DNA of 63,378 nt, filler included, from Reclinomonas americana ATCC 50394 (taxonomy: Eukaryota): assembly GCA_048213135.1 (NCBI GenBank). It is 14 parts of 14 records of this genome, joined end to end, with 100 filler letters (N's around TTAATTAATTAA, not from the genome) between each part and the next. Parts side by side here need not be neighbours in the genome. Positions count along the whole stretch, not along the records: positions 35,401 to 47,533 come from AFZH01017024.1; 13 more parts are not named here. The stretch is one strand, 5' to 3'. Made by a program: the position numbers and the translations under genes. Shown here one piece after another: positions 32,421 to 56,900 of the stretch. The notes beneath the pieces were generated by a model that was not told the DNA's origin, made no database searches, and saw only the letters and a program-made list of their open reading frames with translations. Position 1 is the first letter of the stretch. The number at the start of each line of letters is the position of its first letter.

Positions 32421-34255
32421 ATGATCATGAGACAGAGTGCCCACCCGCCATGGACTCATCACGCGTCTTTCATTCACGACAACCAGCACGTGCGTGTCGC
32501 CGTGCGTGATGTGCACAAGGTTTGGTGTGCTTTTCAGAGGTGAAGTGCGAATATCGGCGGTGATTGACCCCTTTTCCCCCTCGTGTGGCAGGCCGACGAG
32601 CTGCGTCGCTTGGGTGCCGAGATTGTGCAGTCGGGACTGGAGGACCGAGAGAGTGTGCACCGTGCCATGAATGGCATTCAGCGCCTGTTCCTCTTTGTGC
32701 CGTTTGCCGACGAGCGCACTATGGCTGAGGTCTTGCGATGGCTGAGGTCTTGTGTTGTGCTTGGCTTTGCTTACTTGGCTGCGCACTCTGAACTGTGCTT
32801 CTGGTTCGTGGTACAGACTGCCCAGAACGCTATCACCGCGGCCAAGGCGGCCGGCGTAGAGCACGTGGTCAAGCTGTCGGGCGCGGGTGCTGCGCCTGAC
32901 TCGCCTGTCGCCATTGGCCGCAAGGTTAAACTCATGAAGCAGTCAGATTAGCGGGCTTGATCTTAACTCACTTTGTTGCTTTGTGGTGCAGCACGGTGCT
33001 GGCGACCAACTGCTGCGACGCGAGATCCAGTAGTGGACCGTTGTGCGACCGACCATGTTCCAGGTGTGTGTGGCTGATGAGATGGGGTGTGCCACCAGCG
33101 TCTGATCGTGTCGAGCAGGAGAACTTTGCGCAAAACGACGCCGTGACCATCAAGACGGCCGATGCCATCTTTAACAGTTCTGGCGACGGTGCGTGCGGAT
33201 ACGTGGCGGTGGATGATATCGGCGATGTGGCCGCGGAGGCTCTGCTGAACCCGGCCAAGCATCGCGGAAAGGTGTGGAGAGGGATGGATGGAAAGAGGAG
33301 AATGTTATGGGTTGCTCACATTGGAGATCTGTTTTTACAGGCGTAGGATTTGACTGGCCCGGAGGTTTGTAATGATGCCCGACTTTATGTCCTTTCTTTC
33401 TCTCCGCTCGTTGCGCTTCGCTTCTCTCTCTCCTTCTCCGTTCGTTGCGCTTCGCTTCTCACACTCTCCGCTCGTTGCGCTTCGCTTCTCTCCTTCTCCG
33501 CTCGTTGCGCTTCGCTTCTCTCCTTCTCCGCTCGTTGCGCTTCGCTTCTCTCCCTCCGCTCGCTGCGCGTCGCTTCTCTCCTTCTCCGCTCGCTGTGCGT
33601 CGCTTCTCTCCTTCTCCACTCGCTGTGCGTCGCTTCTCTCCTTCTCCGCTCGCTGTGCGTCGCTTCTCTCCTTCTCCGCTCGCTGTGCGTCGCTTCTCTC
33701 TCTCTCTCCGTTCGTTGCGCTTCGCTTCTCTCTCTCTCTTCGCTCGTTGNNNNNNNNNNNNNNNNNNNNNNNNNNNNNNNNNNNNNNNNNNNNTTAATTA
33801 ATTAANNNNNNNNNNNNNNNNNNNNNNNNNNNNNNNNNNNNNNNNNNNNTCCCTGCAGGCACTGACTGTTGCCGACGTCGCCGCGGTGATTTCGAACGTC
33901 CTCGGCCGCCGCATCACGTTCACGAATGTGACACCCAATGAGCGCCGCCGCTCGCTCCTGTCCCACCACGTGCCCGACTGGGCGGTGACGGTTTGTGTTG
34001 GCGCGTCTCTCATCGCACCTGCATAATCTCACTGCCTGTAAACAGGATATCTGCGAACTGGAGGGCCTGCAACGCCAGGGCTACATGAAGAACGTCACCA
34101 ACACTGTCCAAGTTGCGCCTTGTGTCGGAAGTGGATTGCTTGCGTTTTCGCTGTTGTTCCTCACTCCCCCTGTCTTGCAACAGGAGGTGCTGGGCCGCCC
34201 GGCTACGAGCTTCCGTGCCAATGCCGCTCACCTGGCGTCGGCGTGGCGCAACTAA
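32421..34255 (+). pseudogene. NmrA-like / atypical SDR NAD(P)-binding protein, probable pseudogene
   Basis: HVRVAVRDVHK|ADELRRLGAEIV...AMNGIQRLFL...AAKAAGVEHVVKLS...WTVVRPTMFQ|ENF...YVAVDDIGDVAAEAL...LTGPE|ALTVADVAAVISNVLGRRITF...VLGRPATSF. In-frame TAG at 33031-33033 and 33344-33346. No GxxGxxG N-terminus found. Confidence 0.75.
33400..33749 (+). repeat. 30-bp intronic minisatellite (CCGCTCGTTGCGCTTCGCTTCTCTCCTTCT)n
   Basis: About 11 tandem copies running into the gap. Confidence 0.9.
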
Positions 34256-34756
34256 GTGTGCACGGGAGAAGGAGGTCGCGTGTGTTGTTGTTTTGTGTGT
34301 TGATGCCATTGTTTCTCTTTCGTGTCACGATTTCGTGGACTGTCTTTTTTGGTTGCTTGCCGCTGCTGCGGTTTTGGCATGATTATCGGTATATATCCTT
34401 GCTGGGCCTGCCGTCATGTGCTTGGGGATGGGAGGGCAAGGGTGGGATGGTGCTGGGTTCCAGTGCATGCAAAGTCGGTGAGCGCAAGAGCTCTCGTCCC
34501 ATTTTGAGCTGCTTGTTCGCCTTGAATAGAGTAGGATGCATGCGGGAAGCAAATGGTTCGTCTGTTAGCGAAAGTCGCAGGACACATTCAAAACACCGAA
34601 CACGCTCACTCGGGTGCGAAGATTGGAGCACTGTATGAATGTCTACCATCCCGCTGTCTTATTCTCATGCGCACATCCATCTTGCAGGTTTAAACGACAG
34701 TGTACTACATCCGTACGGGTGATATTCTCTATCCACGCATTGACATCTGCAGAGCA

Positions 34757-35457
34757 ATGCAACACCCTCGTCACCTCCTGTTGGCGTGCGTATGGGGGGC
34801 GATGGTGGTGGGAGTGTTGCTCTCTCACATGACGCTGTTGTCTGCTGCGAGCGCGGGAGCGGAACATGCGGGTGCGCGTGAGTGGCATGAAATGTCCGCC
34901 TCTGCAACTTTGCCTGTGAGGGAGCGCACTCGACTCTCTGCTCTTGCACTTCCGTCGTCTCTCTGCATTGGTTCGTCTGCAGAGCTCGAGCGCATCAGAG
35001 TATCGCTGTGGGAATTGGCTCATGAACTTTCTTGTCCGCAGTCAACGTGTCTGCCGACGGCTCGTCGTCCACGCCTTGCGGCGACTCTGCCAAGCCCTGC
35101 GCTATCAGCCAGATTATACCGTCGTGCGTGCAGCGCGGATATCCGGCTGCATCCCCTGAGTGGGCGTTGCAGGTGCTGTTTTCCGACGACACATTTGTTC
35201 TGACTCAACCATTGTCACTTGGCGGTGAGTGAGTGAGAGCGTATCGGGGAAGCTGTGAGACCGAGGGACGTCTCCAGTCTCTCTCTCTCTCTCTCTCTCT
35301 NNNNNNNNNNNNNNNNNNNNNNNNNNNNNNNNNNNNNNNNNNNNTTAATTAATTAANNNNNNNNNNNNNNNNNNNNNNNNNNNNNNNNNNNNNNNNNNNN
35401 TCCTTGTCTCTTTGTCCTTCTCCTTTCTCTCTGTCGCTCACGCTCTCACATACACAT

Positions 35458-35499
<42 letters not shown>

Positions 35500-37442
35500 C
35501 CTCCCTCCCTCTCCTTCTACATGCTTGTCTGTGTGCTGTGAGAGTGACGCTTGCCGAGTGCTTTCCTCATCTCGCTCACGCTGACTCCTACTGCAGGTCG
35601 CAACGTCACTCTCCAGGCTTCACCATCATCCTCACCCATTCTGCAAGCGACGGGCGCGTCTATCGTGGTTCAAGATGTCTCGCGGTTCGAGATGACTGGC
35701 CTCACCGTGACGGGTGGCCAGCCGGCGGTCTCATGGAGCGCACTTGCCACCACACCGTCTCCGCAAGTCGTGATCTCCAACTGTCTGTTCACTGGGTCGA
35801 CGGCGGGTGCTCTCCAACTGGATGCCACTTCCCTTCCAGCCTCCACCACCGCCACGCTTTCCATCGCCAACTCGCAGTTTGTGGATCACCGCGCTGCCGC
35901 GCGCGGTACACAGTCCTCTGCCGTGCTAGCGTCTGGTCGCTTTTCGGTCGTTCAAGTCGTCGGCTCCACTTGGCACAGCTGTACCAAGGTCGGTGACGAT
36001 GCCTCTGGAGCTGCCATGGCGCTTGTCAACCTCGCTGCTGGTGCCACTGTATCGTTACATGATAGTGTGTTCTCTGGCAATTCGGTGGTTGGATCGGGCA
36101 ACACGGCGACTTCGTTGGGGAATGCGGGTGGTGGCGCTGTGTACATGACTGGCGCTGACAGTATGACACTGCAGTTGACAAACTGCTTGTTTACAAACAA
36201 CACTGCCGCGTTCCTGGCAGGCAGCAATACTGGCGGAGGCGCTGTGTATGTCACGAGTAGTGCAACAGTGTCGCTGACGGATGTCGGTGGACACTGGACG
36301 AACAACACCGTGTGGCAATGTGGCAACGGCGATGTGCTGTCGCCGAATGGAGCCACAAATGTGGGTGGCGGCGGCTTGTTTGTCAACAATGCCCTGTCGG
36401 CGACGTTTACGAACTCTACTTTCACTAGCAACGTGATATCGCAGAGTGCAAGTGGTGTGCAGTGCCCCTCTCGTGCTTCGTGTACTGTGCAAAACGCAAG
36501 CGGCGGCCAACAGGCTGGTGGTGGAGCGCTGTGGATGAGCATGACGCAGACGCAACCAAACAGTGTGGCGATGCAGGTGTGAAGTATTTATCTTGAAGTC
36601 GGTTTGCGTGTATCTCATATCGTTGCTTGTGTCGCCCAGTCAATAATAGCAGAAGGCAACCATGCTACCAGCAATTGCGTAGGCGGTAGCAATCTGCTGG
36701 GCAACGGAAATTCGGGATTTTTGTGCGGCGGAGGCATGTTGTGGGTCCTCGGCGTTGTTGAGCTGTCGGTGGTATGAGTCGAGGATCCTCTGACTTTTCT
36801 CGTGCTGGTGCTGACATTGTTGAGCCTTCAGGGGACTGGGAGTTCGTTCACTAGAAACTCGGCGACGGGAAATTCCTGTGGTGGATCAGGAAACGGTGGG
36901 AGCGGTGATTCAACTGGCACCTCTCAATTTCAAGGGGTAGGCGTCCCTCAGGTGAATCTTTCTGGAGGAGGCGCCATGTGGGTCGCACATGCGAAGAATT
37001 CAGGCGCTGTGCAAACGGTTTGTAGTGCGCCTTGCGCTGTGTCTACTTTGCACTTTCGACTGAAGCCACTAGCCTCTACAAGATCTCCAGCAGCGATTTT
37101 CTAGAAAATGTTGCAAATAGCAACGGCAGTGGTGCGTCTGAGGCCAGCAAATTCGGATCAGCAAACGCCAAAGCTGGACATACCGGGGGTGGGGCGGTAC
37201 TATCATTCTTCTTCGCTGGGCAGCAGGTATATTCAACAAAATCACTCAGACGTTTAGCGAAGATTTGATGGAGATGAGTGAGATGTGCAGTCATGTTTGT
37301 AGTCTAGAGAAGTCTAGACAGGTTCTGCACGAAGGTGATTGCCACCATGTACACGAAAAGGACGTGTGCAAACACGCCACATTCACTCACTCTTTTCTCT
37401 CATCCCGTCACTCTCATTAATATTCTCCCTCTCCCGCTGGCT

Positions 37443-37495
<53 letters not shown>

Positions 37496-37496
37496 G

Positions 37497-37547
<51 letters not shown>

Positions 37548-40500
37548 ATACACACATTGTGTTCGGTGGGCACTGAACTATGCTGATAAATCGGCGTTTA
37601 TGTTGCAGACAATCAGCGGCTGTCAATTTATCAAGAATGCAGCGACAATGAACGGGAGTGGAGGGACATCGCCGGGCGGTGAGTTGTTGTCGGTTGTTAT
37701 CGTGCATTTGTCGTGCGTGAGGAGATAAAGATAGGTTGTGTGCGTTTGGGGATATGGAATGCAGTTATGAGATTTAACTGATATGTACGTGGATGTAACT
37801 TGCAAGCATTTTTTGCATGCATGTGGGAACATCTGTGAGCTCGTGACAGTCGGTGTAGGCGATTGTGGAATCGGTGATTTTTGTTGTAGTCGCGTTTACT
37901 CTGTCGATAGAGCAGGAAGTGAATGTCGTGTCTCCCGTTGGCCGCAGCCGTGCGTGACATGAGATATTGTCGTGTTCAGGAGGCCTGACGAGTAGCTCCG
38001 GCGTTTACAATGGAGGTGGCGCTTTGTGGATTAGTTTTATCGCTAGTGACGCGCAGGTGAGCAACATGGGTTGCAACTGGTGCGTGAGATGAAAGTGATT
38101 GTAGGGAGTTGGTTTTTGTTATGTGTTGGTGGTTGTGATAATCTTGTTGACAAGAGAACAACAGAAGGAGTACTGGTTGCGCTGGCAGTTGTGCACTGAA
38201 TAGTTAAGTTGACCTTGCGCGTTGCTGACTGGGCGTATTGTTGTTGTGTGTGCAGAGTACGCAGACAATCAGCGACTGCCGTTTCATGGACAACACGGCG
38301 TCGATGAACGGCAGTGGAGGGAGATCATTGACCGGTGAGTTGTTGCATGGCATCGTACACGGATAATTGGCGATGATTTATGTCTATACTTGATTCTGTT
38401 TACACGGCACGGTATGTTTGCGAGCCGACAAGCCTGCATTTGCGCGCGCGTGTGTGTATGTGAAGATCTGAAGGCAGTACTTACTGGTGGTGGAGAATGA
38501 GTGAGTTTGTCGATGGAAAGCAGTATTGTTTGTGTGCATGGGCGAGAGAAAGAGGGAAAAAGGAATAGAGATCTACAGTGTGTGTGTGTGTGTGTGTTTG
38601 TGTTTGAGCGCGTGCGAGTTAGTGAGGTATTACAACTACCGACTGTGAGGAAGAAAGAAAATAGATTTTAGAGAGAGAGGATGACAGTCAGAAATGAATG
38701 TTGTGTAGCACGGTGCTCACTGTAATTATTGTTCTGTGCAGGTGACGTTATAAGTTCTGGCGGTTTTAATGGAGGCGGTGCTGCGTGGATCAGTTTTAAT
38801 GGCGACAAACAGGTGAACAATATAGCAAGTGCAAACTTTGCACAAGATAACGTTCAGAGGTACAGGCGAGTTGCTGTAGAGAGTTCGTATTGTCATCATG
38901 GGTGGGCATGCGTGAAGCTTTTGTGGAGAGGATAATTGAAGTACGTGGAGGGCAGTTAATACGAGAGAGAGAGAGAAGCAAGAAAGTAGCAAGAGAACAC
39001 GTCAGTGCGTGCACGTGTGAGTACTAAACATTTTGTTGCTGCGTATGCAGAGTGCTCAGACAATTAGTGACTGCCAGTTTATGAACAACACGGCGGTGAT
39101 AAATGGCAGTGGAGGGACATCGCAATTTGGTGAGTTCTTTACACGGCTGTCGTTCTCGTTGTGCAGATGTTGGTAATCGGCGATGACAGGTTCAAGATGT
39201 TGTTTACTCGTTGTGTGCATGAGCGCGTATGTTTGCAATCAGCAAGCCTGATGTGCAAGCTTGCGGTTGCATTCGTGTGTGAAAGAGGCAGTACGTGCTT
39301 GTGGTGGAGAATGAGAGAGTTTGTCGATGGAAGCCAAGAAAGTGTATAGATCTATAAGTGTGTGGGATTGCGTGTGCATGGGCGAGAAAAAATGAAAGAG
39401 AAAGAGAAAGAGTGTATGTGTATGTGTGTGTGTTTGCTGTGAGCGTGTTAGAGTGATTGAGAGTGCGAGAGGTAGAAGGTTTAGTGTCTGCTGACGGCCG
39501 CTTACAACATATGCGCCACGAAATCCTTTTGAGGCCAACACGTGTTTGATTGGCTTTGTCTCTTTGAAGGGAAGATGACTGTTGGAGAAGAGATAGTAGT
39601 GTTAGTGTGCCAAGGTCATTATCGGTAAGGGATTTGTGGTGAATGAAGTGTTTTGTTATTGTGTGGTCGTGAGGAAGAAATGGGAAGGGAGTAAGACAAA
39701 GAGGATGACAGTCATATAGAGAATGTAGTGCGTTGCTCACAGCGATAAGTGACATGAGATCTTATTATTTTGCGCAGGTTCTGCAAGTAGTTCAGGCGTT
39801 TCGAATGGAGGCGGTGCTATTTGGATCAGTTTCTTTGGTTTCGAACAGGTGAGCAATACTGTAAGCCACCGGGTGTGCATGTTACACAAGAGAACGTTGA
39901 GAGTTCAGGCCAGTTGCTTGTGATCGTGCAAGGAAGAGCGGTGCTTGAAATCTTGTTTGTAGAGGATTCTCGGAGTGAGTAGAGGGCTGTTGACAAGAGA
40001 AATACAGAATGCAAACCTGTGAAGCATGATTGTGAGTTCACGCGGTGTTGCCATGTTGCTGACTCCGCATTCTGTCCTTGTGTTCGTTGAATGTGCAGAC
40101 AATTAGTGACTGCCGGTTTATGAATAACACGGCATCGATGAATGGCAGCGGTGGAACATCGTTCTACGGTGAGTCATTTGTACGCATATCGTACAGTGCA
40201 GATGTTGGAAATCGGCGATGAAATATAGTTGGTTTTGTTTACTCGGTGTGTGAATGTGCACGTTTGTTTGCGAGTCGGTAAGCCCTATGTGTTAGCGCTG
40301 CGTGTGGTTGCATTTGTGTGTGTGTGTGTGTGTGTGTGTGCGTTTGTGCGAAAGAGGCAATACGTACTGGTGGTGGAGAGTGACGAAGCGTGTAAGTGGA
40401 ATTGTATGTTGCATCGGAGAAAGAGAAAGACAAAGAGAAAGAGAAATTGAAAAAGAAAGAGAGCGCGTGTGAGTGAGAGTGCAGGAGATAGTAGTGTGTG

Positions 40501-43500
40501 GTTGAGAGGAAGAAAAGGGAAGAGATAAGAGAACGTGAGTAATGGGCGTGATAGAATCCAGGGAATGTTGTGTAGAACGTTGCTCACAGCGATGAGTGAC
40601 ATGGATTATTGCTATTTTGTGCAGTTAGTGCAAGTAGTTCTGGCGGTTCAAATGGAGGCGGTACTATGTGGATCAATTTCGTCGGCAACAATCAGGTGAG
40701 CACAATGCTGTGTTTCGTCGTACTGTGTCATCGTGAGCAAATCGTGCACACGAGAACGATCAGAGATCAGACGAGTGCCGTAGAGAGTTTGTATTGATCG
40801 TGGGTGGGCCTGCGTGAAGTTTTTATGGTAGAGAGGATTATCGAAGTGGGTAGATTGCAGTTGACAAAAGAGAGAAGCAAGAAATATAATGAGAACTTGT
40901 AACATGCGTTTTCGAGTTCATGAATCGTATGCTGTGTGTATATGTGTGAGAACGTGATAACTGAGTATGATGTTGTTGTGTTTGCAGACTATTAGTGACT
41001 GCCAGTTTATTAACAACCTGGCGTCGACAAGCGGAAGCAGTGGGACATCGTACTACGGTGAGTCATTTCTACGCCTATTGTACTTATTGTGCAGATGTTG
41101 GTAATCAGCGATGAAAGATTGTTGATTGTTTTCTTGGGTGTGAAAATTTCGTACTTGTGGTGGAGAATGAGTGAGTTTGTCGATGAAAGTGAAGAAACTG
41201 TTGTGTAGCTCGTTGCTCACGGCGATGCTTGACATGGATTATTTTTGTTCTGCGCAGGTGATGCAAGTAGTTCAGGCGGTTTGAATGGAGGCGGTGCTAT
41301 ATGGATCACTTTCAACGGCAACAGTCAGGTGAGTAATATTTTAAGTGCCAACGAAGTCATCGTGTACATCGCGCACAGCAGAACGATCGGAGATCAGGCG
41401 AGATGCTGCAGATAGCTTGTATTGGTGAATTTGTGAGCAAAGTCTTTTTTTGCAGAGGATGATCGACGTGATAAGAGGGCTGTTGACAAGAGATGCTGTT
41501 GACGAGAAAAACATAGAATGAGAACCTTTGAAACATGATTGTGAGGTCACGCTGTGTTTTTTCACACATTTTCCTCGTGCCAGAAATGCTATATCTTCAC
41601 TGACTCCACGTGTTAAAATACAGATAATCAGTGACTGCCATTTTATAAACAACACGTCGGCGATGAACGGCAGTGGAGGGGCATCGCAGTACCGTGAGTC
41701 ATTTGTACGTCTTTGCACTCGTTTGGCATATGCTGGTAATCTGCGAAGAAAGTTAGTTGATTCTTTTCTTGTGTGTGAAAATTTCGTACTAGTGGTAGAG
41801 AATTCAGTGAGTTTGTCGATGGAAGTGAAGATAGTGTGGAATTGTATCTGTGCATCGGCGAGGGAGAAAGAGAAAGAGAAATAAAGTATGTGAGCGTGCG
41901 AGAGGTAGGAGTGCGTGGTTGTGTGGGAGAACAGGAAGAGATTGAGAGAAAGAGGATGACAGTTGTGGAAGAGAATGTTGCGTAGCTCGTTGCTCACAGC
42001 GATGCTTGACATGGATAATTGTTGCTCTGCAGGTGATGCAAAGAGTTCAGGCGGTTTGAACGGAGGCGGTGCTATATGGATCACTTTCAACGGCAACAAT
42101 CAGGTGAGCAATGTTGTAAGTGTGAACGATGTCATCGTGTGCACATCTCGCACAAGAGAATTGTCGGAGATCAGGCGAGTTGCTGTCGATAGCTTGTATT
42201 GGTGCTTACGAGAGAGTGTGCGTGAAGGGTCCATGTTGGAGACGATTATCGAATTGAGCAAAGGGCTGTTGACAAGCGAGAGAGAGAGGAGAGAGAGAGA
42301 GAAAGGCAAGAAAAGTATCGTGCCTAGAATGAGAAACACATGAATCATGATTGTGCGTTCGCGCGGTGTGTTTTACCACATTTTTATGCGTTGAAAGTGT
42401 GATATGGTTGTCGAATTGCTGACTCGGCATCGTGTCTATGTTCTTATTGAATGTTCAGACAATCAGTGACTGCCAATTTATGAACAACACGGCGTCGATG
42501 AACGGAAGCGGTGGGACTTCGGGCGGTGAGCTATTCTTCATGGCTGTCTTAGGCGCATGTGCAGAGGCGTAGTTTTGTGTCGTTTTGATGTGCAATATCG
42601 GGACAGAGATGACAACGAAAAGAGTGAGAGAGCGGGCCGCTTTCGTAGATAGAAGTGCGCTCATGCAGATAAGTTGCAAATAATAATAGTAATAGAAACT
42701 TCACTAACACATACAACAATGAGCATCAACCAGTGATCGCCAACGAGCTTAGGCGTTCGTTATAGACAACTAGTGCATATTTCTGCTGTACAGGTATCTG
42801 AGGAATACAGGGGACAAATCGTGATGAGACAGAGTGAGAGAGAGAGAGAGTGAATTCGACGAGCAAAATTGGTAGTAAAGTAGAATGTGGTAGAATGTTG
42901 CCTCTTGTGGGTGATGTATTTTGATTTTCTGGTGGACGCAGGCCAGCAAGAAGACGGTCATGGAGATGCAAGTAGCTCTGGTGGCTACAACGGAGGTGGA
43001 GCGAGCAGCATCGTGGTCGGCGATGGGGGGTTGTCTCTGGTATGCGAGTATGTTGTACATTTGTCTTGCCAGTCGCCAATGTTAGGAGTATGTTGCCTTG
43101 TTTCGAGCAGATGCGTCGCAACGTATATTTCGGAAACCAAGCTGTGCGCAACGGCTGCGGTGGAACAAGCGCTTCTGGTCCGGCAAAGTCTTCCGGTACA
43201 GCCAGTGGTGGTGGGGCACTACTTGTACAGTGGACGACCTCTTTTGATGCTACGCTAAATGTTGCGGCTTGTATCACGTCAGAAAGATGTCTTCGACGAG
43301 TCGTTTGTACTGATTGTCGTGCAGATCACCGAATGTCACTTTTACAGCAATGTCGCATCAAGCAACGGTACGTGGGTGTTGTGCGCTTGCCCATATGCGT
43401 CGTTGCCCTAAGCTCCGAGTTGTTATAACAGGAAATGGTGGAATTGGCCTCCAATCTGCATTCAGCTCTTCCTCATACTGCGGCGGTGGCGCAATGTTGC

Positions 43501-46500
43501 TCCACTCGGAGTCTAATTTCGCTGTCTCGTTGGTGAATATTTTTCGTATCTTCTCAACGCGTACGTGCTCAACGTGCTTCAGACCCTTATTCACCGTGCA
43601 TATCAGGGAGTCTTGCACTCAAACTTCACCAACAACCTGTCCAGCAACAACGGTAATGGCGGCAACTCTCCAGTCGGCGCATCCCTTAGCGGCTTCCACG
43701 GTGGCGGGGCAGCACTGCTGGTCGCCCCAACACAATTTTCTGCGCAAGTTACGTGACAGAAGCTGTATGATGCGCCCTGCTTGTCGAGTTCTCATCTTTA
43801 TCGAGTGTACAGAATGCGGCATTTAACATTGCTTCGTCGAATTTCGTCAATAATCGCTCTTCGCAAGATGGCTCGGGGAGGCCGAACGTACCGGGACAGC
43901 CTTCGTCGAATGCACAGGGTAGCAACCACAACGGCGGTGGCGCTCTCCTGCTGGTGAACTCTGTGGCCGTCATCAACAGCAACTTTACCAGCAACTCTGT
44001 GGCCGACGCAGGAGCGGGAGTTGCTCCGTTCTCTTCCGGCAACTTTTGTGGTGGAGGCGCAGTGCTGCTCTATGGCAATGCCGCTCTTTCAACGTCTACG
44101 TTGAGCGGGAACTCGGTGACGTCCTCGATTCCTCTTGTTATTGCTGGTCGTTCAAGCGGTGGTGGCGGAGTGCTGGCGGATGCTACCAGCACAATCAGTA
44201 ACTCGACAATCGCGAACAATTTCGTCTCTGGTTCACTAGTCGCTGGAGGCGGGGTGTTACTGGGCCCGAATTCCATAATCCAGCAGAGCATGGTGTCGTT
44301 CAACTACGCTTCCACTTCGAGTGGTGTGTCGGGTGGAGGTGGTATCAGCGTCAGCGGAATTGGAGCGCACATTGTTTCAACGAAAGTGATGAGCAACTGG
44401 ACTCCGACTGGATTTGGTGGCGGCATTTTGGTGAACGAAGTGGACACTGCTGTCACGGTGCAGTCATCGTTCCTCTTTAACAACACGGCGCTGTATGGCG
44501 GTGGTATCGCTGTTCGCGCCGATCAGAGCCGTCTCAACATGAACGGAATCACGGTGGCGCAGAGCAATACTGCATATCGCAGTGGCGGCGGCCTGTACGT
44601 GACGGCCACAGCCAGTGTTTCCGTGAGCGGCAATTCACGCGTAGACTCCAACTCAGCTGTCAGCTTTGGCGGCGGTGTGTTTGCTGACTCGCAGTCCACC
44701 ACGCTGTGGTCCGGCGCGTTTGTGGTGCGCAACACGGCGCCATTTGGCGGTGGACTCTTCAGTGACGCGGAGAGTTCGCACAACATCACGGCCACCAACT
44801 TTGCCAACAACAACGCCGCGACTGCCGATGGTGGCGGAATCTATGCGGACGGCGTATCGCGAATCAATTGCAACAACTGCACGGTGACAGGAAACGGAGC
44901 CGTGCTGGCTGGCGGTGGGCTCTTTGTGTCTGAGCTGGCCTCCGTCAATACCACACAGTCGCAGTTCACTTCTAACAGTGCCAACACCACTGGTGGACAC
45001 GTGTGCCTGCGCGGTCGTTGCCAGTGGAATGACGGCTACTCGACCTTTGGTGTTGGGCGTGCCACTTTGGCAGGTGGTGCAGCCTTCTTTGCTGGTGGTG
45101 CCGCGGGTTGCTTGGTCGGGACGCAGTTTGCCTCGAACACGGCGGTGGCCGGCGGTGGCGGCGCGTTGTCGGTGACAGAGACTGCCAATGTGACACTATC
45201 AAATGTGGGACTCGCGTCGAACCGGGCTCTCTTTGGCGGTGCGGTGCAGTTGGACAACTCGCCGTCGGTCAGCCTGACTGACACAACGTTTTCTGGTAAT
45301 GTGGTCCCGACTGCTGGTGGCGGCCTGCTCGCCGCCGGTGCCAGTACGCTGGCATGCCTGCGCTGTCGCTTTGCTGGCAATGAGGCACTCGGAGGTGACG
45401 GTGGTGGCGCATCAGTGACCAACAGCACCACGGTGTCGTTCGTCGACAGTGATTTCATTTCCAATTTGTCCGGCAGCCGTGGTGGCGGTCTGGCAATCAA
45501 CATGACGGCCGTACCCTCTGTCGCTGCTTCCGGCTTCGGCGTCAGTGCAGTAGGCGTGTGGCTGCAAGGGCTCTCACTGTCTGGCAACATGGTCGAGGCT
45601 CCCAGCGGCGTGCACGCACTAGGCGAGGGCACTGGCGGTGGCCTTTTCCTGAACGGAGGTGGCGATCCGATGCGGCTGGCGACCACGGCTGTCATCTTTG
45701 CGTCATATGGTGGTGGGTGGGAGCAGTGGGTCGAGGAGTACGATATTGAGCTGTCTGGGAACTCGGCGACCGACACCAGTACCGATGACGTTGGAAGCAG
45801 TTGCGTTCACTGGGTGTACAGGGAAGGTGACAGCGTGCGGGAGGGATCTGGGAAGACGTAGAAAAGGGAGCAGAAGTCACTACATTGTTATCAGTAATTT
45901 TTGTATGCGCCAAGTGCGATGTGAGTCCCTCACGTGCTTGTCATCGCCATTTGTGCGTTGGCAGCGTATCTCTCTTTTTCGTATTGTTCGTCCATTCGTT
46001 TTCTTGGCTGACTGCAGTATTTGCTCAGCACTTTTCGATGTTAGAGTATCATTGGTGCTCAACGACACCAATGGCGACAACAGTATCGTATATCCCTCGC
46101 CGAGTACACCATACAGAGTCCAAGTTGAAGCTGTGGATGTCTTTGGACACCCTCTGACGACGCTCGATAATACCATCTTGTCTCTCGCATGCAATGGCTG
46201 CAACGCAGGGGTGAGTCGGACGAACATATTAGTGTGTGTGAGTTGTGAGAATGTTCTTTGACACGCAGTGTTACAGACGGCGGATCAAGCTGAGCCCACA
46301 GTCGGGGGAGTTGCCACCTTCCAGATATTGGTGAACCAGGAAGGCACCGCCACTGACGCGGATGTGGGTGCACGCACAGTGGACATGTCATCGCAGTCCG
46401 CATTCAACATCACCGTGGGCATCAGTGGCGGAGGTCACTTTGCGCAGCAACCGCCGCCACTTGCGATTCCAGTCGGGCCGTGTCCAGCTGGCACGGAATT

Positions 46501-49500
46501 CAAGAGCAGCGCAGGAGGCTGCATTGACTGCGCTGGAGACACGTACTCTCTGGCGGCTCCGTCGTTCGACCAGACATGCCAGGCGTGTCCGCCCGGTCTA
46601 ACGTGTCTGGGCGGCAGGAGTATCAGTGTGGAGTCTGATTTCTGGACTTTCCCAGTCTCACATGCCTGGGAGACGGAGGCGGTTTACGTGAACAGCTTTT
46701 CCATTGGGCCGCCTGACAATGGCTACGTCGTGATGTACACATGCCCCTACGACTATTGCCAACGGCCTGAGTCTGTTCCGATGAGCAATGTCGAGGAGGC
46801 CGACTATTGCAATGAGGAGCTACATCGCGATCCGTTGTCGCCGTTGTGTGGCGCGTGCAAGGTGTGTGCCGATTCCGGCCGATGCGATGAAGCGCCTTGT
46901 TTGCTCTGCTGACCCTTGCTCTCAGGCAACGTATTCGTATTGGGAGGGAGAGTGTATCGAGTGTGAAACCACGTCGAATGTTGCTCGACTCGCCGTCATC
47001 CTCAAGATGGCGGCGTTTGTCCTTGGGCTGCACATCTTCTCTCAGACAGGTGGTGGTGGAGGTGAGAGGGGAATGTGAGGGAAAGGGAGAGGGAAAGGGA
47101 GAGGAGAGGGGTGAAGAGGAAAGGGGAAGGGGCAAGGAGAGAGAGAAACAGAGGGAGTTGAAGGGAGGAAGAGAAAGAGAAGACAAAGGAAAGAGAAAAA
47201 AGGAGGGAGGAAAGAGAAATAAACAGAGACAGAAAGGAAGCGGGGAAAGAGGGACGAAGGAGAGGAAACGAGAGCGGTAATTTGGGAGGAAGTGTAAGGC
47301 AAGGTGAAGGAGAGAGGAAGGGAGAGAGGAAGGGAGAGAGGAGAGGAGAGAGGAAAGGAGAGAGGAAAGGAGAGTGGAAAGGAGAGAGGACAGAAGAGAG
47401 AGAGGAAACAGGAATGGAGACAAGAATGAAGATGGAAAGAAGAGAGGAAAGGAGTGAGAAATGGAAAGAGGAAAGGAGAGAAAGGAGATGGAAAGAGAGA
47501 GAGAGAGGAAGGGATAGAGGAAAGGAGTGAGAANNNNNNNNNNNNNNNNNNNNNNNNNNNNNNNNNNNNNNNNNNNNTTAATTAATTAANNNNNNNNNNN
47601 NNNNNNNNNNNNNNNNNNNNNNNNNNNNNNNNNAGAGAGGAATGGAGAGAGGAATGGAGACTGAAAGGAGAGAGAAATAGAAAGAGGAAAGGAGAGAGAA
47701 ACGGAAAGAGCGAGAGAGAGAAACGGAAAGAGCGAGAAAGAGAAACAAATGAGAGAGTAAGATAGAGGCAAGGAACGCAGAGGGAGACAAGAGGAGAGGG
47801 AAAAGAGAAGTCTCGGGGAGATTAATGAATAAAGAGAGAAGAGAAAAGATGACATGAGAGAGGAATGGAGCGAGACAAGGGGCGAATGAGGATGGAGATG
47901 AAATGAGAGAGGAAAGGAGCGAGACAAGGAAGCAGAGAGGTGAATGAAAAGACGAGAGGAAAGCATAATACAGAGAGAGAATGAGTGTAACAGAGAGGAG
48001 AGGAGCAAACAGACGATAGGGGCGCGGAGAGAGACATGAAGTGAAGCAAGTAAGTTGACAAGCTAGGCAGAAGAAAAGTGGCTTTTCAGGATGCGGGGAA
48101 TGAGAAAGAGCAGATAAGCAAAGCAGAAGTGAGGCGGAAGAGAGAGAAATAGGAATTGGGGGGATTAAGCTGGACAGACCATATTTCGTAGCGAGAGTCT
48201 CGTTTCTTGTTCTGCCACCTTTGCAAGAGAATATCTTGTGGAAACGATTACCGAAGCAGCTGATGGGTATCCGCCTACTTTTTTGCTTTCTACCGCTCAC
48301 ATTCTCGTTTTGTCCGTTCGTTAGCTGTCAACTCACTTATCTCTTCAACCTTTGCGCATCGCAGCCTCGGCTGAAATGATCATCTTCACGTTGCAGACCA
48401 TGACTCTACTCTTCTACCCCAATGTGGAGCTGCTGTCGGTTGGCCGCCTCCTCAAAGGTTGGGTACCGGCGTACTTTAATGTCGGCTGCCCATTGCATCT
48501 CGACGCTGCTGGCGACATGGTTGCCCGCGTCGTTTCACCCTTGGTGTACTTGGCGCTGCTGTGGATGTTTTTTGGCCTTCACCAGTTGCTGGCGTTTTCG
48601 TTTATTCGTTGTTGTCAGCCGGGCAGTCGATTCCAGCGTGATGGCTGGCGAGGCCGATTTGCTCAATGGTTTGCTCGAGAGGCGTCGCCGTATCGCTACG
48701 TGACGACGACTATTGTGCTTTTGTTGTCGGCCTACGAGGGTATGACAGAGGCGGTGATCACATTTTTGTTTTCATGCACGGCTGTTGGCAAGCAGCATGT
48801 CGTGCTCTTCTCGCCCAGCATTGTGTGCTACACTGGAGTGTTGCGTGGGGGGAAAGAGAGAGGGAAGGGAAGGGAGGGGAGGGTAAGGGAGGGAAGGGAA
48901 GGGTTTAGATGAAAGAGAGGGAGAAAGAGAGTGAGAGAGTTTAGGGAGGATAGAAGTGAGGGAAGAAGAGAGGGACGACAAGAGGGAAGGAGAGAGGAAA
49001 GGGAGGGAAGGAAGGGAAGTGAGGAATGGGAGGGAAGGAGGCAAGGAGGGAAGGAGGGAAGGAAGGGATGAGGGAAAGGAAGGGAGAGAAGGGAGGGAAG
49101 GGAGGGAANNNNNNNNNNNNNNNNNNNNNNNNNNNNNNNNNNNNNNNNNNNNTTAATTAATTAANNNNNNNNNNNNNNNNNNNNNNNNNNNNNNNNNNNN
49201 NNNNNNNNGGGAAGGGAAGGGAAGGGAAGGGAAGGGAAGGGAAGGGAAGGGAAGGGAGGGAAGGGAAGGGAAGGGAAGGGAAGGGAAGGGAAGGGAAGGG
49301 AAGGAGAGAGACAAGAGAGGAAAAGGAGTGAAGGGAGGGAAGGACGGAGGGATGAGTGAGTTACAGGAGTGAATGAGTGAGTGAGTGAGTGAGTGAGTGA
49401 GTGAGTGAGTGTGATGATGAGAAGATGAGAAGAGTGAGAAGCGTGTGTGAGTGAGAAAGTGAGCGAGAAAGAGAGAGAGAGAGTATGAGTGAGTGAGTGA

Positions 49501-53981: not shown

Positions 53982-56900
53982 ATGTCGGTGAGTTGTATTG
54001 ATTGAGTGGGGGACGCTTGTTGTTCGCTTGCTTCTCCTTGTCTTCTCTCTTTCTCATCGCTTGGCACTCACTTTCCTGTGTATGTCGCAGTTCTCTGTGC
54101 ATGTGAGCGCGGCGCATGATTCATCGCTGTCGGTGGTGGAGGGCATGTCGGCCATGTCCACTCTCGCAGACTTGCTGCGCGAGGCCACACGCGTGCTGCG
54201 TGAGAAGTGTGGAGATGAGGGGGTGGAGATTGTGGGGGTGGAGAAGCCGAGTGCATTCGACTTGGAGGATGCGAGTGTGTTGAAGCTCAAGTCACTCGGC
54301 ATCAACTCAACTAGTCATCTTGTTGTCCGTGTGACGCTTGGCGCGGCGGTGCAGTCGAATGGAGGGAGTGGGAGTGAGAGTGGAAGGTATGTGAGTGATT
54401 CCTCTCTTTTCTCTTTTGCACACATGCAACTCACTCATGTCTTCGCACAGCAACTCGGATCGAGTGACGCGGTTTGTTTTGCTTGTCTTCGTCATCCTTC
54501 TTCTCTCCCTTTCTTTGTTCTTCCACTCGGAGTGAGTATGTGCTGACTATGTCTGTGTGTGCGCGCACAGCATGATCAACTCACAGCGCATCAACATGGC
54601 CTTTGAGGCGGTAGAGGAGGCCGTGCGTCTGCGCTGTCAAGTTGCACTGGCCAAGTTCAGTCGTGATCATCCCGACTTTGATGTGCGGGCATGGGTGCCA
54701 AGTTTCACACCTGTTGGCATGGATGCGGTGGCCGTGAAGGCATGGCGTGAGCGACATGCTCCACTCCATCCCGCACGAGTCAAGTTGTTTGCGGAGAAGC
54801 AGCCGGTGTTGTTGGCCTGGCGTGCTGCATTCGACGCGGACTCCTCATCCGACCCTCCGTGTAACGGATTCGACACGACGGCACTCACCACTATCATGCT
54901 GTATGGTGGCTTTGTTCTGGATGACGGTCGCCAGGTGCTATTGATTGACGATGTCGAAGAACGGAAGGCGGTGGAGGAGCTTCATTCTGTCAGAAACAAG
55001 CTGAGACACGATGAGTTGCCATTGACAGACACCACTGTGCAGCATTACCTTGGTGACGGTGGTGTCTTTTTCTCCATCCTCTCTCGACTGCAGTTCACCG
55101 ATGATGAGCGTGCTCGATTCTCTTCTCGTATCTGCGAGGCGCGTCATGCTCGACACATTGTTGACACATTCGAGGAGCGACTGCATCGGTTGGCTGTGCG
55201 TGAGCTCTCCTTCTACCAGCACGACGAGAGTGTGCACAAGGACATGCAGATGTATGTGCCACTGTTGTGCTCACGTGATCGTGACGTCTCTTCGAGTGAC
55301 AAGATGACCGATCTGTTGACGGAGGTGGATGCCTTCCTCTCTGACGCCAACACCACGCAACGTGTGTTGGTTCTTTTTGGTAATAGTGGCACCGGCAAGA
55401 CCACCACCATGTCGGTGCTGGCTGAGAGAGCATGGCGACAGTGGCAGATGAGGGAGAGCAGGCGAGTGCCTGTGCGTGTGCCTCTCGGTGCACTGCGCAA
55501 TGCCAATGAGCGATTGTTGGAGGAGGCACTGGAGCGATTGTCACCAGAGGTGGGATTGGAGTCGGATGTGCGACGACTGAAGGAGGAGCCACTGCTGTTG
55601 TTGCTTGACGGATACGATGAGTTGTACCGTGGTGTGAATCTGTTTGTCAAGAACCAGCTGGATGTGTGTCGCGATGTGAAGGCGATCATCGCCTGTCGTG
55701 GGGATTACGCACTGACGGCACTGGGTGGAGTGACGCAGTATCGACGGTACTTTGCACCAGTGGATGCACGAGGACAGTTGTGCATGCTGCAGCTGATGGA
55801 GCGACACGTCGCGCCATTCAACAAGGAACAGATTGTGGAGTACTTTGTGAGATTGGTGCAAGTTGGTGATGATGATGATGACGGTGAAGTGCGATGGTCG
55901 ACTGCCGAGGAGTACATTGATGCACTGAGGAGTGTGCTTGGACTGGATGCACTTGTGTCGAATCCATTCCTGTTGGCAGTGGTGGCTCGTGTGTTGCCGC
56001 AGTTGGTGGCAAGTGGTGTGCAGCGACCGACTCGGTGTGATGTGTTTGACCGATTCATTCGACAGTGGATTGCGAGGGAGCTAGGGAGACAAACTCGTGT
56101 TGGTGCGAAGTGTGTGCCGATGGAGGAGACGTGTCTGGCATTCTGTGAGGGACTGGCACGGTTGATGCATGAGAGGAATGTGGTGCGGGCCATGTCAGAG
56201 GAGCGGGCATTCGAAGAAGATATTGCTGAGTTTGGCGGCGCGCCATTTTCCTTGCGACGAGTGGAAGAGGGACCGTTTGACAAGTTCCTCGGTCACAGGA
56301 ACCAGTATGTGCGAGTGTGCTGTCCGATTGTGCGACGGTTTGGAACGACGCAGTGGGGTTTCGTGCATCTGTCGTTGCTTGAGCACTGTGTGGCACGGCA
56401 TGTGTTTGCGTGGGAGACGTGGGATGAGGAGAGGAGATTGACGGTGCAAGATGTGCAACAGCATGTGTTGGGAGTGCGACTGCTGAACGACAGACCATCG
56501 TTGGTGAAACAGATGGCCGAAGTGGTGCGACGGTCTCCTCGACTGCAAGCGAGACTGTGGGAGGTAATTTATATGTCACGTGAGGTGGATGAGGAGCGAT
56601 TGGTGACGGCTGCCGCGAATGCAGCAACGGTGTTATGTGTGGCGCAAGTGTCGTTCAGTGGGCGAGATCTCTCGGGTGTGCGAGTGAGGGGTGCGGATTT
56701 GAGGGACGCGGTGATGCACAGGACGGCGTGGAGGGGGGCGGATTTGCGAGGGGTGAATGTATGCATGGCGTATGCGAGGGAGGCGGATTTCAGAGGAGCG
56801 GATGTGACGGGCGTGAAGTGGCCGATGAAGCCGATAGTGAGCCACACTGATAGAGTATTTGCAGTGGTAGTGACACCCGATGGGCAGCATGTTGTGAGTG

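What the first reader, a model, noticed from the sequence alone, without database searches (positions are those of the whole stretch)
37609..43039. Exon-cassette array in a surface receptor: frame-compatible A/B exon pairs with a hypervariable di-residue at the splice donor
Seen: seven A exons (phase 0 to 1) alternate with B exons (phase 1 to 0), mostly 141 nt (47 aa) per pair, and the introns are duplicated too. A exons read TISDCQFMNNTASMNGSGGTS-xx-G, where xx = PG, LT, QF, FY, YY, QY or G-. B exons read GDASSSGGxNGGGAIWIxF-xxxx-Q, where the tail = IASDA, NGDK, FGFE, VGNN, NGNS or NGNN. Any A can splice to any downstream B, and any B to any downstream A, without frameshift. Inference: each cassette adds beta-helix coils whose aromatic-rich variable loop positions stack into a ligand-binding ridge. 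Diversity could be generated by cassette skipping (Dscam-like) or by intronic unequal recombination, giving a modular variable receptor or adhesin. The ORF track does not resolve this array.
Basis: partly seen in the sequence, partly recalled or inferred. Interest (0 to 1): 0.75.

Follow-up and report, generated by a model that had tools for sequence, protein, structure and literature searches.

The report
Duplicated exon pairs in a beta-helix surface protein
A eukaryotic gene for a long, Chlamydia-Pmp-like beta-helix surface protein grew by copying a two-exon unit with its introns seven times; the layout is real, but nothing shows that it is used to generate diversity by splicing.

Summary
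Seven A exons (70 nt, the last 67; phase 0 to 1) alternate with seven B exons (71 nt; first 77, last 98; phase 1 to 0). All have GT-AG borders, and the introns of cassettes 2-6 are homologous.

The array is the middle of one large gene. A 23-exon model (35548-45858) stays open for 4989 nt. Its relatives carry PF02415 (Chlam_PMP) and PF13229. An AlphaFold model of the contiguous downstream exon is a right-handed parallel beta-helix.

Each 47-aa cassette is one canonical 27-aa GGG...FxxN coil plus a Ser/Gly-rich spacer of about 20 aa that holds the variable "xx" residues. Equivalent long spacers in the model have pLDDT below 50.

The best reading is an old tandem duplication of an exon-intron-exon-intron unit, with all exons spliced in. 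Genomic copies differ by 22-34 % with no sign of homogenisation, and pairwise dN/dS is 0.22-0.70.

Frame compatibility follows automatically from such a duplication. I found no specific docking/selector RNA pairing, and no RNA data could be obtained, so Dscam-like skipping is untested rather than refuted. This is an ordinary kind of feature: a new member of a known kind.

The parts
34757..35225 (+). Probable first two exons: an ATG with a hydrophobic, signal-peptide-like stretch, then an exon with a Cys-x-Pro-Cys cap-like segment. They lie on the preceding assembly piece (33850-35300), so adjacency to the rest of the gene is not proven.
   Evidence: Kyte-Doolittle mean 2.11 over 19 aa; linker at 35301-35400.
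35548..36576 (+). Large upstream exon with canonical short GGG...FxxN repeats (P0002).
   Evidence: Pfam Chlam_PMP scores 14.7 bits, below the 20.6 cut-off.
36640..37226 (+). Three single-exon repeat units (36640-36771, 36832-37017, 37083-37226), phase 0 to 0. The last one (U0, 48 aa) is homologous to a whole A+B cassette but has no internal intron.
37227..37608 (+). A 382-nt intron before A1 that holds a 106-nt (CTCTCA/CT)n microsatellite at 37441-37546.
37609..38056 (+). Cassette 1: A1 37609-37678 and B1 37980-38056 (147 nt coding).
38265..38812 (+). Cassette 2: A2 38265-38334 (alternative in-frame acceptor at 38256) and B2 38742-38812.
39060..39848 (+). Cassette 3: A3 39060-39129 (alternative in-frame acceptor at 39051) and B3 39778-39848. 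It has the longest internal intron, 648 nt.
40099..40695 (+). Cassette 4: A4 40099-40168 and B4 40625-40695. The junction codon gives Val.
40988..41328 (+). Cassette 5: A5 40988-41057 and B5 41258-41328. It has the shortest internal intron, 200 nt.
41624..42103 (+). Cassette 6: A6 41624-41693 and B6 42033-42103. The junction codon gives Arg. B5 and B6 are 94 % identical.
42459..43039 (+). Cassette 7: A7 42459-42525 (67 nt) and B7 42942-43039 (98 nt). It is divergent, with an 8-aa longer spacer.
43111..43747 (+). Three further long-spacer units. D1 43111-43260 and D3 43607-43747 are single exons (D3 is 141 nt). D2 is split 8 codons earlier than the array cassettes (43325-43367 + 43432-43532). 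Introns here are 64-74 nt.
43813..45858 (+). Large downstream exon with about 20 canonical repeats. It is modelled as a right-handed parallel beta-helix.
   Evidence: TIGR01376 scores 15.1 bits against a cut-off of 15.
46017..47047 (+). Probable 3' exons: a Cys-rich segment and a hydrophobic transmembrane-like segment. The exon borders were read by eye. The gene may run on past the end of the piece at 47533.
   Evidence: Ephrin_rec_like E 0.016, 15.5 bits, below the 23.1 cut-off; Kyte-Doolittle mean 1.93.

Best explanation
The array is the central, recently expanded part of one intron-rich eukaryotic gene. The gene encodes a very long cell-surface protein built of Pmp-type (GGA[ILV] / FxxN) right-handed parallel beta-helix coils.

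The repeat unit here is 47 aa. It consists of a canonical 27-aa coil, which starts at the GGG motif of a B exon and ends at the FxxN-x-A of the next A exon, plus a Ser/Gly-rich spacer of about 20 aa with one or two aromatic residues in its middle (the 'xx').

An ancestral unit that carried a phase-0 intron in the coil and a phase-1 intron in the spacer was copied in tandem as genomic DNA, introns included. Five clearly related copies (cassettes 2-6) sit between older ones (1 and 7) and intron-poor homologous units (U0, D1, D3).

I infer that all 14 exons are normally spliced in. That adds seven coils, which at a recalled rise of about 0.48 nm per coil is about 3.4 nm. It would also give a row of seven flexible loops along one edge of the helix that carry N-glycosylation sequons and are rich in Ser, Gly and Tyr. 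Adhesion or ligand contact through these loops is the most likely role, by analogy with Pmp side loops.

Shown: exon anatomy, phases, intron homology, the open frame, family relationship of the flanking exons, and the beta-helix model of the downstream exon.

Inferred: constitutive splicing, the loop conformation of the spacer, surface location, and adhesive function.
For: Anatomy and frame:
- With all 23 exons joined the frame stays open for 4989 nt with no stop.
- All 14 array exons keep consensus donors and pyrimidine-AG acceptors.

Duplication:
- Introns of cassettes 2-6 align along their length with shared blocks and branch-point-like CTGAC/CTCAC motifs.
- In 30-nt windows the exons are 0.66-0.86 identical and the best intron blocks 0.71-0.78. 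This is what a DNA-level duplication predicts.
- Whole genomic units are 66-78 % identical (cassettes 2-6). They form a star-like tree with terminal branches of 0.14-0.24 and 0.51 for cassette 1.

Selection:
- Pairwise dN/dS among cassettes 2-6 is 0.22-0.70 in 10 of 10 pairs. The copies are under purifying selection, so they are not decaying.

Family and fold:
- Relatives of the downstream exon reach E 5e-79 at 30 % identity, and most listed ones carry PF02415 and/or PF13229.
- The alignment consensus gives a canonical period of GGG, 18 residues, N-x-A, 3 residues.
- ESM Atlas neighbours are Chlam_PMP clusters, scores 0.92-0.93.
- The AlphaFold2 model of 43771-45858 has mean pLDDT 79 and pTM 0.83, with regular three-strand coils above 90.
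- Foldseek matches are antigen 43, pertactin, alginate lyases and tailspikes.
- A profile search of PDB sequences finds 7w5z_U2 (E 4.6e-28) and rhombotarget A 9cdu_A (E 3.4e-24).

The spacer:
- In the model, the three spacers of 15 or more residues between N-x-A and GGG (residues 29-55, 75-94, 120-130) lie in the segments with pLDDT below 50.
- The array spacer is 30.5 % Ser and 24.8 % Gly, and the array holds 13 N-x-S/T sequons.

Literature:
- PMC11166332 (passages read): GGA(I,L,V)/FxxN units correspond to beta-helix coils, the motif residues face inward, and side loops are the predicted adhesion and cleavage sites.
- PMC6701047 (passages read): eukaryotic (trichomonad) Pmp-like proteins have N-terminal repeats plus a C-terminal transmembrane domain and raise adhesion when expressed.
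Against: - No transcript evidence of any kind could be obtained, so constitutive inclusion is an assumption.
- The 14 introns in and before the array are 200-648 nt, while the 8 other introns of the model are 60-74 nt. Short 70-nt exons between unusually long introns are the setting in which exon skipping is most common (general knowledge).
- The array itself could not be tested against Pfam or folded, because spliced sequence is not accepted by those tools.
- None of the 10 single exons I submitted gave a Pfam match.
- Local phmmer of the spliced array against 242 fetched proteins gave no hit with default filters and one weak hit (P0093, 15.2 bits, bias 54.6) without the bias filter.
- Direct family scores on the flanking exons are marginal: PF02415 14.7 bits against a 20.6 cut-off, and TIGR01376 15.1 against 15.
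- AlphaFold2 can give confident but unrealistic beta-solenoids for repeat sequences (10.1101/2024.10.30.621056, abstract seen in the listing).
- The signal-peptide exon lies on a different assembly piece.
Confidence: 0.7

Rival explanations
1. Regulated cassette skipping. Whole cassettes, or an A from one cassette and a B from a later one, are skipped to give isoforms with different helix length and loop sets. This would be a splicing-based diversity generator, loosely Dscam-like.
For: - Every A is phase 0 to 1 and every B is phase 1 to 0. No A-B junction codon is a stop, and flanking units are phase 0 to 0, so any such skip is in frame.
- Array introns are 3-10 times longer than the gene's other introns.
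- A beta-helix tolerates removal of whole coils (general knowledge).
- A 106-nt (CT)n tract before A1 is complementary to (GA)n tracts inside array introns, with arms of 28-30 nt at 82-92 %.
- Tandem exon duplication is a known source of alternative exons and of competing RNA structures (PMC9013439 and PMC6071210, abstracts seen).
Against: - Frame symmetry is automatic for a duplicated 141-nt unit.
- Splice sites are uniformly strong.
- The (CT)n/(GA)n complementarity is low-complexity. The window has 111 purine and 56 pyrimidine tracts. The 9 purine tracts in the 5.9-kb array match the window average of about 1.75 per kb.
- No other long inverted repeat appeared among the 25 longest of the 109 pairs found.
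- All-exon inclusion gives a regular, open product. That is unlike mutually exclusive clusters, where only one exon of the cluster is included.
Confidence: 0.12
2. The array is a recombination hot spot. Unequal crossing-over between homologous introns changes cassette number and order between strains, giving population-level variation of an adhesin.
For: - The array was made by tandem duplication of exon-intron units, so unequal exchange has happened at least four times.
- Neighbours 5 and 6 are the most similar pair: 78 % over the unit, 94 % in the B exon and 86 % in the internal intron.
Against: - Copies are 22-34 % diverged over the genomic unit, and terminal branches of 0.14-0.24 show no recent homogenisation or very young copy.
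- Such divergence is a poor substrate for homologous recombination (general knowledge).
- No second strain or orthologous locus was found. The metagenome scan gave 4 loci, all at or below 37 % identity.
Confidence: 0.12
3. The xx and tail positions are under diversifying selection because they form a ligand-binding surface.
For: - Columns 22-23 (xx) and column 46 are among the most variable of 47. Five of the ten xx residues in cassettes 2-6 are Tyr or Phe.
- The 14 most variable columns give pN/pS 1.25, against 0.21 for the rest.
Against: - Those 14 columns were chosen because they vary, so the ratio of 1.25 is circular.
- Two codons in five copies give no statistical power.
- Overall dN/dS is below 1 in 10 of 10 pairs.
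- Loose constraint on a flexible Ser/Gly loop explains the pattern equally well.
Confidence: 0.2
4. Assembly artefact or decaying pseudogene.
For: - The window is 14 contigs joined by artificial N44-TTAATTAATTAA-N44 linkers.
- Repeats are a classic source of mis-assembly.
Against: - The array lies inside one uninterrupted piece, 35401-47533.
- Copies differ by 22 % or more over the genomic unit, so they would not be confused in assembly.
- There are no stops or broken splice sites in 23 exons, and dN/dS is below 1.
Confidence: 0.03

Closest known systems
Chlamydial polymorphic membrane proteins (Pmp; PF02415 / TIGR01376 repeat)
   Same: Both have alternating GGA(I/L/V)-type and FxxN motifs at regular spacing, each unit forming one coil of a long parallel beta-helix. 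Side loops between coils are the candidate interaction sites (PMC11166332, passages; PMC10715098, abstract).
   Different: This gene is eukaryotic and intron-split. No autotransporter beta-barrel or Pmp middle domain was found in the open frames scanned; instead there is a Cys-rich segment and a transmembrane-like helix. Seven or more units carry a Ser/Gly spacer of about 20 aa where the family consensus has 3 residues. Curated-model scores are marginal.
Trichomonad Pmp-like surface proteins (TvPmp)
   Same: They are eukaryotic proteins with N-terminal FxxN/GGA repeats and a C-terminal transmembrane domain in place of the autotransporter part. Expression raised adhesion (PMC6701047, passages).
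   Different: No sequence comparison with them was made here. The ATPITK motif described for trichomonads was not looked for. The exon-per-repeat structure is not described in the passages I read.
Green-algal and other eukaryotic PF02415/PF13229 proteins (names from sources: Bryopsis, Cymbomonas, Mesostigma, Ostreobium, Aphanomyces) and many bacterial 'outer membrane repeat proteins'
   Same: These are the best database relatives of the downstream exon, at 24-35 % identity among the first 30 listed and E down to 5e-79.
   Different: No near-identical protein was found, so the source organism is not represented. A profile of the 47-aa long-spacer unit found no protein with E at or below 0.001 among 1.84 billion representatives.
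Dscam-type clusters of mutually exclusive, tandemly duplicated exons
   Same: Both have tandem arrays of homologous exons made by duplication, with introns.
   Different: In those clusters one exon per cluster is chosen, through docking/selector RNA pairing (PMC6071210 and PMC1431710, abstracts). Here the unit is an exon pair, all-inclusion is in frame and structurally sensible, and only generic low-complexity complementarity was found.
Exon-equals-repeat genes expanded by tandem exon duplication (for example collagen and other solenoid or repeat proteins; recalled, not looked up)
   Same: There is a one-to-one relation between the exon set and the structural repeat. The phase-symmetric units were expanded as DNA.
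   Different: Each unit here carries two introns, one inside the coil and one inside the loop. Neighbouring homologous units lack the loop intron or have it 8 codons away.

Membership tests
Chlam_PMP / POMP repeat proteins (PF02415, TIGR01376) | Score at or above the curated cut-off of the repeat model | tested here: inconclusive
   PF02415 scores 14.7 bits against a 20.6 cut-off on 35551-36582, and gives no match on 43771-45858. TIGR01376 scores 15.1 bits against a cut-off of 15 on 43771-45858. None of the 10 single array exons submitted matched; they are 22-32 aa long. The spliced array could not be submitted.
Chlam_PMP / POMP repeat proteins (PF02415, TIGR01376) | Alternating FxxN and GGA(I/L/V) tetrapeptides at regular spacing | tested here: met
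   FxxN is present in 7 of 7 cassettes. Strict GGA[ILV] is present in 4 of 7; the others read GGAA, GGTM and GGAS. The period is 47 aa in 5 of 7 cassettes.
Chlam_PMP / POMP repeat proteins (PF02415, TIGR01376) | Significant homology to proteins that carry the domain | tested here: met
   This holds for the flanking exon P0001 only. There were 395 and 508 proteins with E at or below 0.001 among about 8000 scored candidates in each search, the best at 5.2e-79, and most listed ones carry PF02415 and/or PF13229. Atlas neighbours are PF02415 clusters.
Right-handed parallel beta-helix fold | Three-stranded coils stacked into a solenoid | tested here: met
   The AlphaFold2 model of 43771-45858 has regular E-E-E coils with pLDDT above 90 over about residues 135-575. 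Foldseek finds antigen 43, pertactin, PL6 lyases and tailspikes; the best E is 2.5e-4 and TM-scores are low. The array itself was not folded.
Chlamydial Pmp autotransporters (the protein family proper) | C-terminal autotransporter beta-barrel and Pmp middle domain | tested here: not met
   Neither domain appeared in Pfam scans of the gene's open frames. A transmembrane-like helix is present instead. The 3' end of the gene may lie beyond the assembly piece.
Mutually exclusive exon cluster (Dscam type) | Tandem homologous exons | tested here: met
Mutually exclusive exon cluster (Dscam type) | Only one exon of the cluster is included per transcript | not testable with these tools
   No sequencing run was listed for the locus.
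Mutually exclusive exon cluster (Dscam type) | A conserved docking site complementary to a selector sequence next to each variant exon | tested here: not met
   The 25 longest of 109 inverted-repeat pairs all involve the (CT)n tract at 37430-37549 and GA-rich tracts. Such tracts occur at the same density across the whole window.
Mutually exclusive exon cluster (Dscam type) | Joint inclusion of the exons is prevented or disruptive | tested here: not met
   Joint inclusion of all 14 exons is in frame and gives seven regular repeat units.

The most novel reading that the evidence does not exclude
The seven exon pairs sit between introns 3-10 times longer than the rest of the gene's. They could be skipped in frame, in whole or in A(i)-B(j) combinations, giving a single-gene family of surface beta-helices. 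These would differ in length and in the set of Tyr/Phe-bearing Ser/Gly loops displayed along one edge. That would be a splicing-based variable adhesin in a protist or alga. The (CU)n tract before A1 and the (GA)n tracts in the array introns are candidate looping elements.
Probability: 0.1. Interest if true: 0.65.

Novelty: new member of a known kind. Interest (0 to 1): 0.25.

Why it matters
The locus is a clean example of how a solenoid surface protein grows: by DNA-level duplication of phase-symmetric exon sets together with their introns. It also shows that Pmp-type beta-helix proteins occur in an unsampled intron-rich eukaryote with a membrane anchor in place of an autotransporter barrel.

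The neighbouring homologous units either lack the loop intron or have it 8 codons away. This makes the locus a small natural series for studying intron gain, loss or sliding.

If cassette skipping or copy-number variation were shown, it would be a new way of varying an adhesin. Nothing here shows that.

Tried and rejected
- **Pfam scan of the spliced array protein.** Pfam and NCBIfam were run only on unspliced window stretches.
- **Folding the array.** This was not possible for the same reason. I folded the contiguous downstream exon as a stand-in.
- **RNA and DNA sequencing runs.** None was listed for 36000-45900, so no reads could be laid.
- **Whole genome.** None is held for this window.
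- **Orthologous loci.** A metagenome scan with P0001 gave 4 loci, all distant at 27-37 % identity, so it could not be used to count cassettes.
- **Profile of four single-exon long-spacer units** (alignment A4, 49 positions) against 1.84 billion representatives: 0 proteins with E at or below 0.001. The query is short and low in complexity, so this is weak evidence.
- **Local phmmer of the spliced array** against 242 fetched proteins: 0 hits with default filters and 4 rows at E up to 10 without the bias filter, only one of them below 0.01. Composition bias swamps the score.
- **Docking/selector idea.** Only (CT)n/(GA)n low-complexity complementarity was found, at the window's base rate.
- **Hidden micro-exon or intronic RNA in the conserved intron blocks.** By eye, the conserved intron blocks showed no open frame compatible with phase 1. 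Rfam gave one match in 12.1 kb, GcvB at E 0.99, well below its threshold.
- **Minus-strand open frames across the array** (39204-39755, 41341-42099, 42726-43277): no Pfam match.
- **Identifying the organism through the neighbouring NACHT-WD40 gene.** Only relatives at 30 % identity or less were found, mostly Mortierellomycota fungi, which is not informative.

Full report
**What is in the sequence**

The window is eukaryotic DNA. It consists of 14 assembly pieces joined by 13 artificial linkers, each made of 44 N, TTAATTAATTAA and 44 N. The finding lies wholly inside one uninterrupted piece, 35401-47533.

On the + strand I recovered seven A exons and seven B exons. The A exons start at 37609, 38265, 39060, 40099, 40988, 41624 and 42459; they are 70 nt, except the last, which is 67 nt. 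The B exons start at 37980, 38742, 39778, 40625, 41258, 42033 and 42942; their lengths are 77, 71, 71, 71, 71, 71 and 98 nt. Every exon is bounded by a pyrimidine-rich AG acceptor and a GT donor. The donor is GTGAG for all seven A exons and GTGAG or GTGAA for B1-B6; B7 has GTATGC.

A exons go from phase 0 to phase 1 and B exons from phase 1 to phase 0. Pair lengths are 147, 141 (five times) and 165 nt.
- The codon split by the intron gives G, G, G, V, G, R, G, so it is not always Gly.
- A2 and A3 each have a second in-frame AG 9 nt upstream, directly behind the pyrimidine tract. These exons may be 79 nt long and add three residues.
- My own first end for B7 was one base too long.

**The introns are copies too, but only in part**

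The A-to-B introns of cassettes 2-6 are 64-86 % identical and the B-to-A introns 60-72 %. They align over their length, with shared blocks and conserved branch-point-like CTCAC and CTGAC motifs near the acceptors. The A-to-B introns of cassettes 1 and 7 align at only 44-55 %, which I take as no detectable homology.

In 30-nt windows across the aligned genomic units of cassettes 2-6, the exons score 0.66-0.86 and the best intron blocks 0.71-0.78. Most of the exon similarity is therefore inherited from a DNA-level duplication and is not the result of strong constraint.

Whole genomic units of cassettes 2-6 are 66-78 % identical. A maximum-likelihood tree of the six complete units (cassettes 1-6) is star-like: terminal branches are 0.14-0.24 substitutions per site and 0.51 for cassette 1, and no inner branch is well supported. 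The duplications are not recent, and there is no sign of concerted evolution.

**The gene around the array**

Only this locus in the window has a high density of GGG-type and FxxN-type motifs. By reading splice sites I built a 23-exon model from 35548 to 45858. It is open for all 4989 nt and every intron is GT-AG. The model consists of:
- a large exon (35548-36576) with canonical short repeats;
- three single-exon units;
- the array;
- three more units;
- a 2046-nt exon with about 20 canonical repeats.

Upstream, on the neighbouring assembly piece, an ATG at 34757 opens a hydrophobic, signal-peptide-like stretch (Kyte-Doolittle mean 2.11 over 19 residues). Downstream lie a Cys-rich segment (Pfam Ephrin_rec_like, E 0.016, below threshold) and a transmembrane-like stretch (mean 1.93). 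A type I surface protein is thus plausible but not proven. The 5' exon sits on another piece, and the 3' end may run past 47533.

**Family and fold**

The downstream exon (P0001) has hundreds of relatives. In two searches, 395 and 508 proteins reached E at or below 0.001 among about 8000 scored candidates each. The best scored 5.2e-79 at 30 % identity, and most listed ones carry PF02415 (Chlam_PMP) and/or PF13229 (Beta_helix). The named ones come from green algae, an oomycete and many bacteria. No near-identical protein exists in the collection, so the source organism is unsampled.

Direct scores against the curated repeat models are marginal. PF02415 gives 14.7 bits against a cut-off of 20.6, and TIGR01376 gives 15.1 bits against 15. 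ESM Atlas neighbours are Chlam_PMP clusters.

An alignment with 47 relatives gives the family period of GGG, 18 residues, N-x-A, then 3 residues. An AlphaFold2 model of the translation of 43771-45858 built on that alignment has mean pLDDT 79 and pTM 0.83, with regular three-strand coils above 90. Foldseek matches antigen 43, pertactin, PL6 alginate lyases and phage tailspikes; the best E is 2.5e-4 and the TM-scores are low. A profile search of PDB sequences finds 7w5z chain U2 and rhombotarget A. The fold class is the right-handed parallel beta-helix. One caution applies: AlphaFold2 is reported to over-predict solenoids for repeats (10.1101/2024.10.30.621056, abstract only).

**What one cassette encodes**

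Read against the family period, the stretch from the GGG of a B exon to the N-x-A of the next A exon is 26 residues (27 with the next residue), which is one canonical coil. The remaining 20 or so residues replace the usual 3-residue turn. In cassettes 2-6 this spacer is 30.5 % Ser and 24.8 % Gly. The xx residues sit in its middle, next to the phase-1 intron. The phase-0 intron lies inside the coil.

Homologous long-spacer units flank the array, but their introns differ. U0 (37083-37226), D1 (43111-43260) and D3 (43607-43747, exactly 141 nt) are single exons. D2 is split 8 codons earlier than the array cassettes.

In the model of the downstream exon, the three spacers of 15 or more residues all fall in the segments with pLDDT below 50, while coils with short turns score above 90. 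By analogy, each cassette adds one coil and one probably flexible loop. Because the loop occupies the same place in every repeat, the seven loops must lie along one edge of the helix. The array holds 13 N-x-S/T sequons, which fits an extracellular, glycosylated segment.

The passages I read in PMC11166332 say that in chlamydial Pmps the GGA and FxxN residues face the core, and that side loops are the predicted adhesion and protease sites. PMC6701047 describes eukaryotic Pmp-like proteins with a C-terminal transmembrane domain that raise adhesion. These support, by analogy only, an adhesive role for the loops.

**Is xx hypervariable?**

Among cassettes 2-6, 14 of 47 columns hold three or more different residues. 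The xx columns have 4 and 3 states, and one tail column also has 4. Pairwise dN/dS is 0.22-0.70 in all 10 pairs.

The 14 variable columns give pN/pS 1.25 against 0.21 for the rest. They were picked because they vary, so this is not a test. With two codons in five copies nothing more can be said. Relaxed constraint on a loop and diversifying selection are both open.

**Splicing-based diversity**

It is true that any A can join any later B in frame, and any B any later A. This is the automatic result of duplicating a 141-nt unit, so it carries no weight by itself.

Several observations argue against regulated skipping:
- Splice sites are uniformly strong.
- Full inclusion gives an open, regular product.
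- The 25 longest of the 109 inverted-repeat pairs found in 37230-43100 all pair the (CT)n tract before A1 with GA-rich tracts in the introns.
- Such tracts are everywhere in the window: 111 purine and 56 pyrimidine tracts. The nine purine tracts in the array equal the window-wide density.

One observation leans the other way. The 14 introns in and before the array are 200-648 nt, whereas the other 8 introns of the model are 60-74 nt. Short exons between unusually long introns are more prone to skipping.

No sequencing run could be listed, so splicing is untested. I put regulated skipping at roughly one in ten.

**Recombination-based diversity**

The array was made by unequal exchange or a similar process, at least four times. 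The copies are now 22-34 % apart over the genomic unit and show no homogenisation. No second strain or orthologue could be found. Ongoing copy-number variation is possible but unsupported.

**Other checks**

- Rfam gave one match in the 12.1-kb piece, GcvB at E 0.99, far below its threshold.
- Three minus-strand open frames across the array have no Pfam match.
- A profile of the long-spacer unit found no protein with E at or below 0.001 among 1.84 billion representatives. The query is short and low in complexity, so this is weak evidence.
- The array itself could not be scanned against Pfam or folded, because spliced sequence is not accepted by those tools. Single exons gave no match (0 of 10 submitted).
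- Local phmmer of the spliced array against 242 fetched proteins was swamped by composition bias.

**Verdict**

The array is a real and tidy exon-pair array. It is best explained as an old tandem duplication within a eukaryotic Pmp-like beta-helix surface protein, with constitutive splicing assumed. It is a new member of a known kind. Interest is modest unless transcripts or strain comparisons show that cassette usage varies.

Noticed in passing
window, 13 sites (e.g. 35301-35400; full list): Every gap is 44 N + TTAATTAATTAA + 44 N, an artificial six-frame-stop linker. The window is therefore a chain of 14 contigs of 1.0-12.1 kb, and neighbouring pieces need not be adjacent in the genome. Several breaks sit in CT/GA microsatellites.
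   Followed up: yes
window 54557-59662 (+): There is an intron-free 1701-aa open frame with many WD40 repeats. The relatives of its N-terminal 700 residues carry NACHT (PF05729). The best hits are at or below 30 % identity and are mostly Mortierellomycota fungi. It is a STAND-type NTPase-WD40 protein.
   Followed up: partly
whole window: Purine-only and pyrimidine-only tracts of 20 nt or more are very frequent: 111 and 56 tracts, about 10 % of the window. They cluster by strand over several kb, for example all-pyrimidine at 12.5-15.5 kb and 26.4-27.4 kb, and all-purine at 16.2-22.1 kb and 47.1-53.3 kb.
   Followed up: partly
window 37227-43039 versus the rest of the gene model: Intron length is bimodal within one gene. 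The 14 introns in and before the array are 200-648 nt. The 8 others (36577-37082 and 43040-43812) are 60-74 nt.
   Followed up: partly
window 38252-38264 and 39047-39059: Tandem in-frame acceptors lie 9 nt apart before A2 and A3. The upstream AG follows the pyrimidine tract directly. Using it would add three residues at two cassette borders.
   Followed up: partly
window 37083-37226, 43111-43260, 43325-43532, 43607-43747: These homologous long-spacer repeat units lack the loop intron (three units) or have a phase-1 intron 8 codons upstream of the array position (one unit). This is a small series bearing on intron gain, loss or sliding.
   Followed up: partly
A-to-B introns of cassettes 2-6 (e.g. 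41146-41190, 41205-41257): Intron blocks are as conserved as the exons (0.71-0.78 in 30-nt windows). One mid-intron block contains a GTGAGT-like donor look-alike in four of five copies. A block before the acceptor carries CTCAC. Both survive even in the shortest (200-nt) intron. No open frame was seen by eye and there was no Rfam match.
   Followed up: partly
window 39460-39700: A stretch of about 200 nt is present only in the internal intron of cassette 3, making it the longest at 648 nt. It has no counterpart in the other copies, and its origin was not examined.
   Followed up: no
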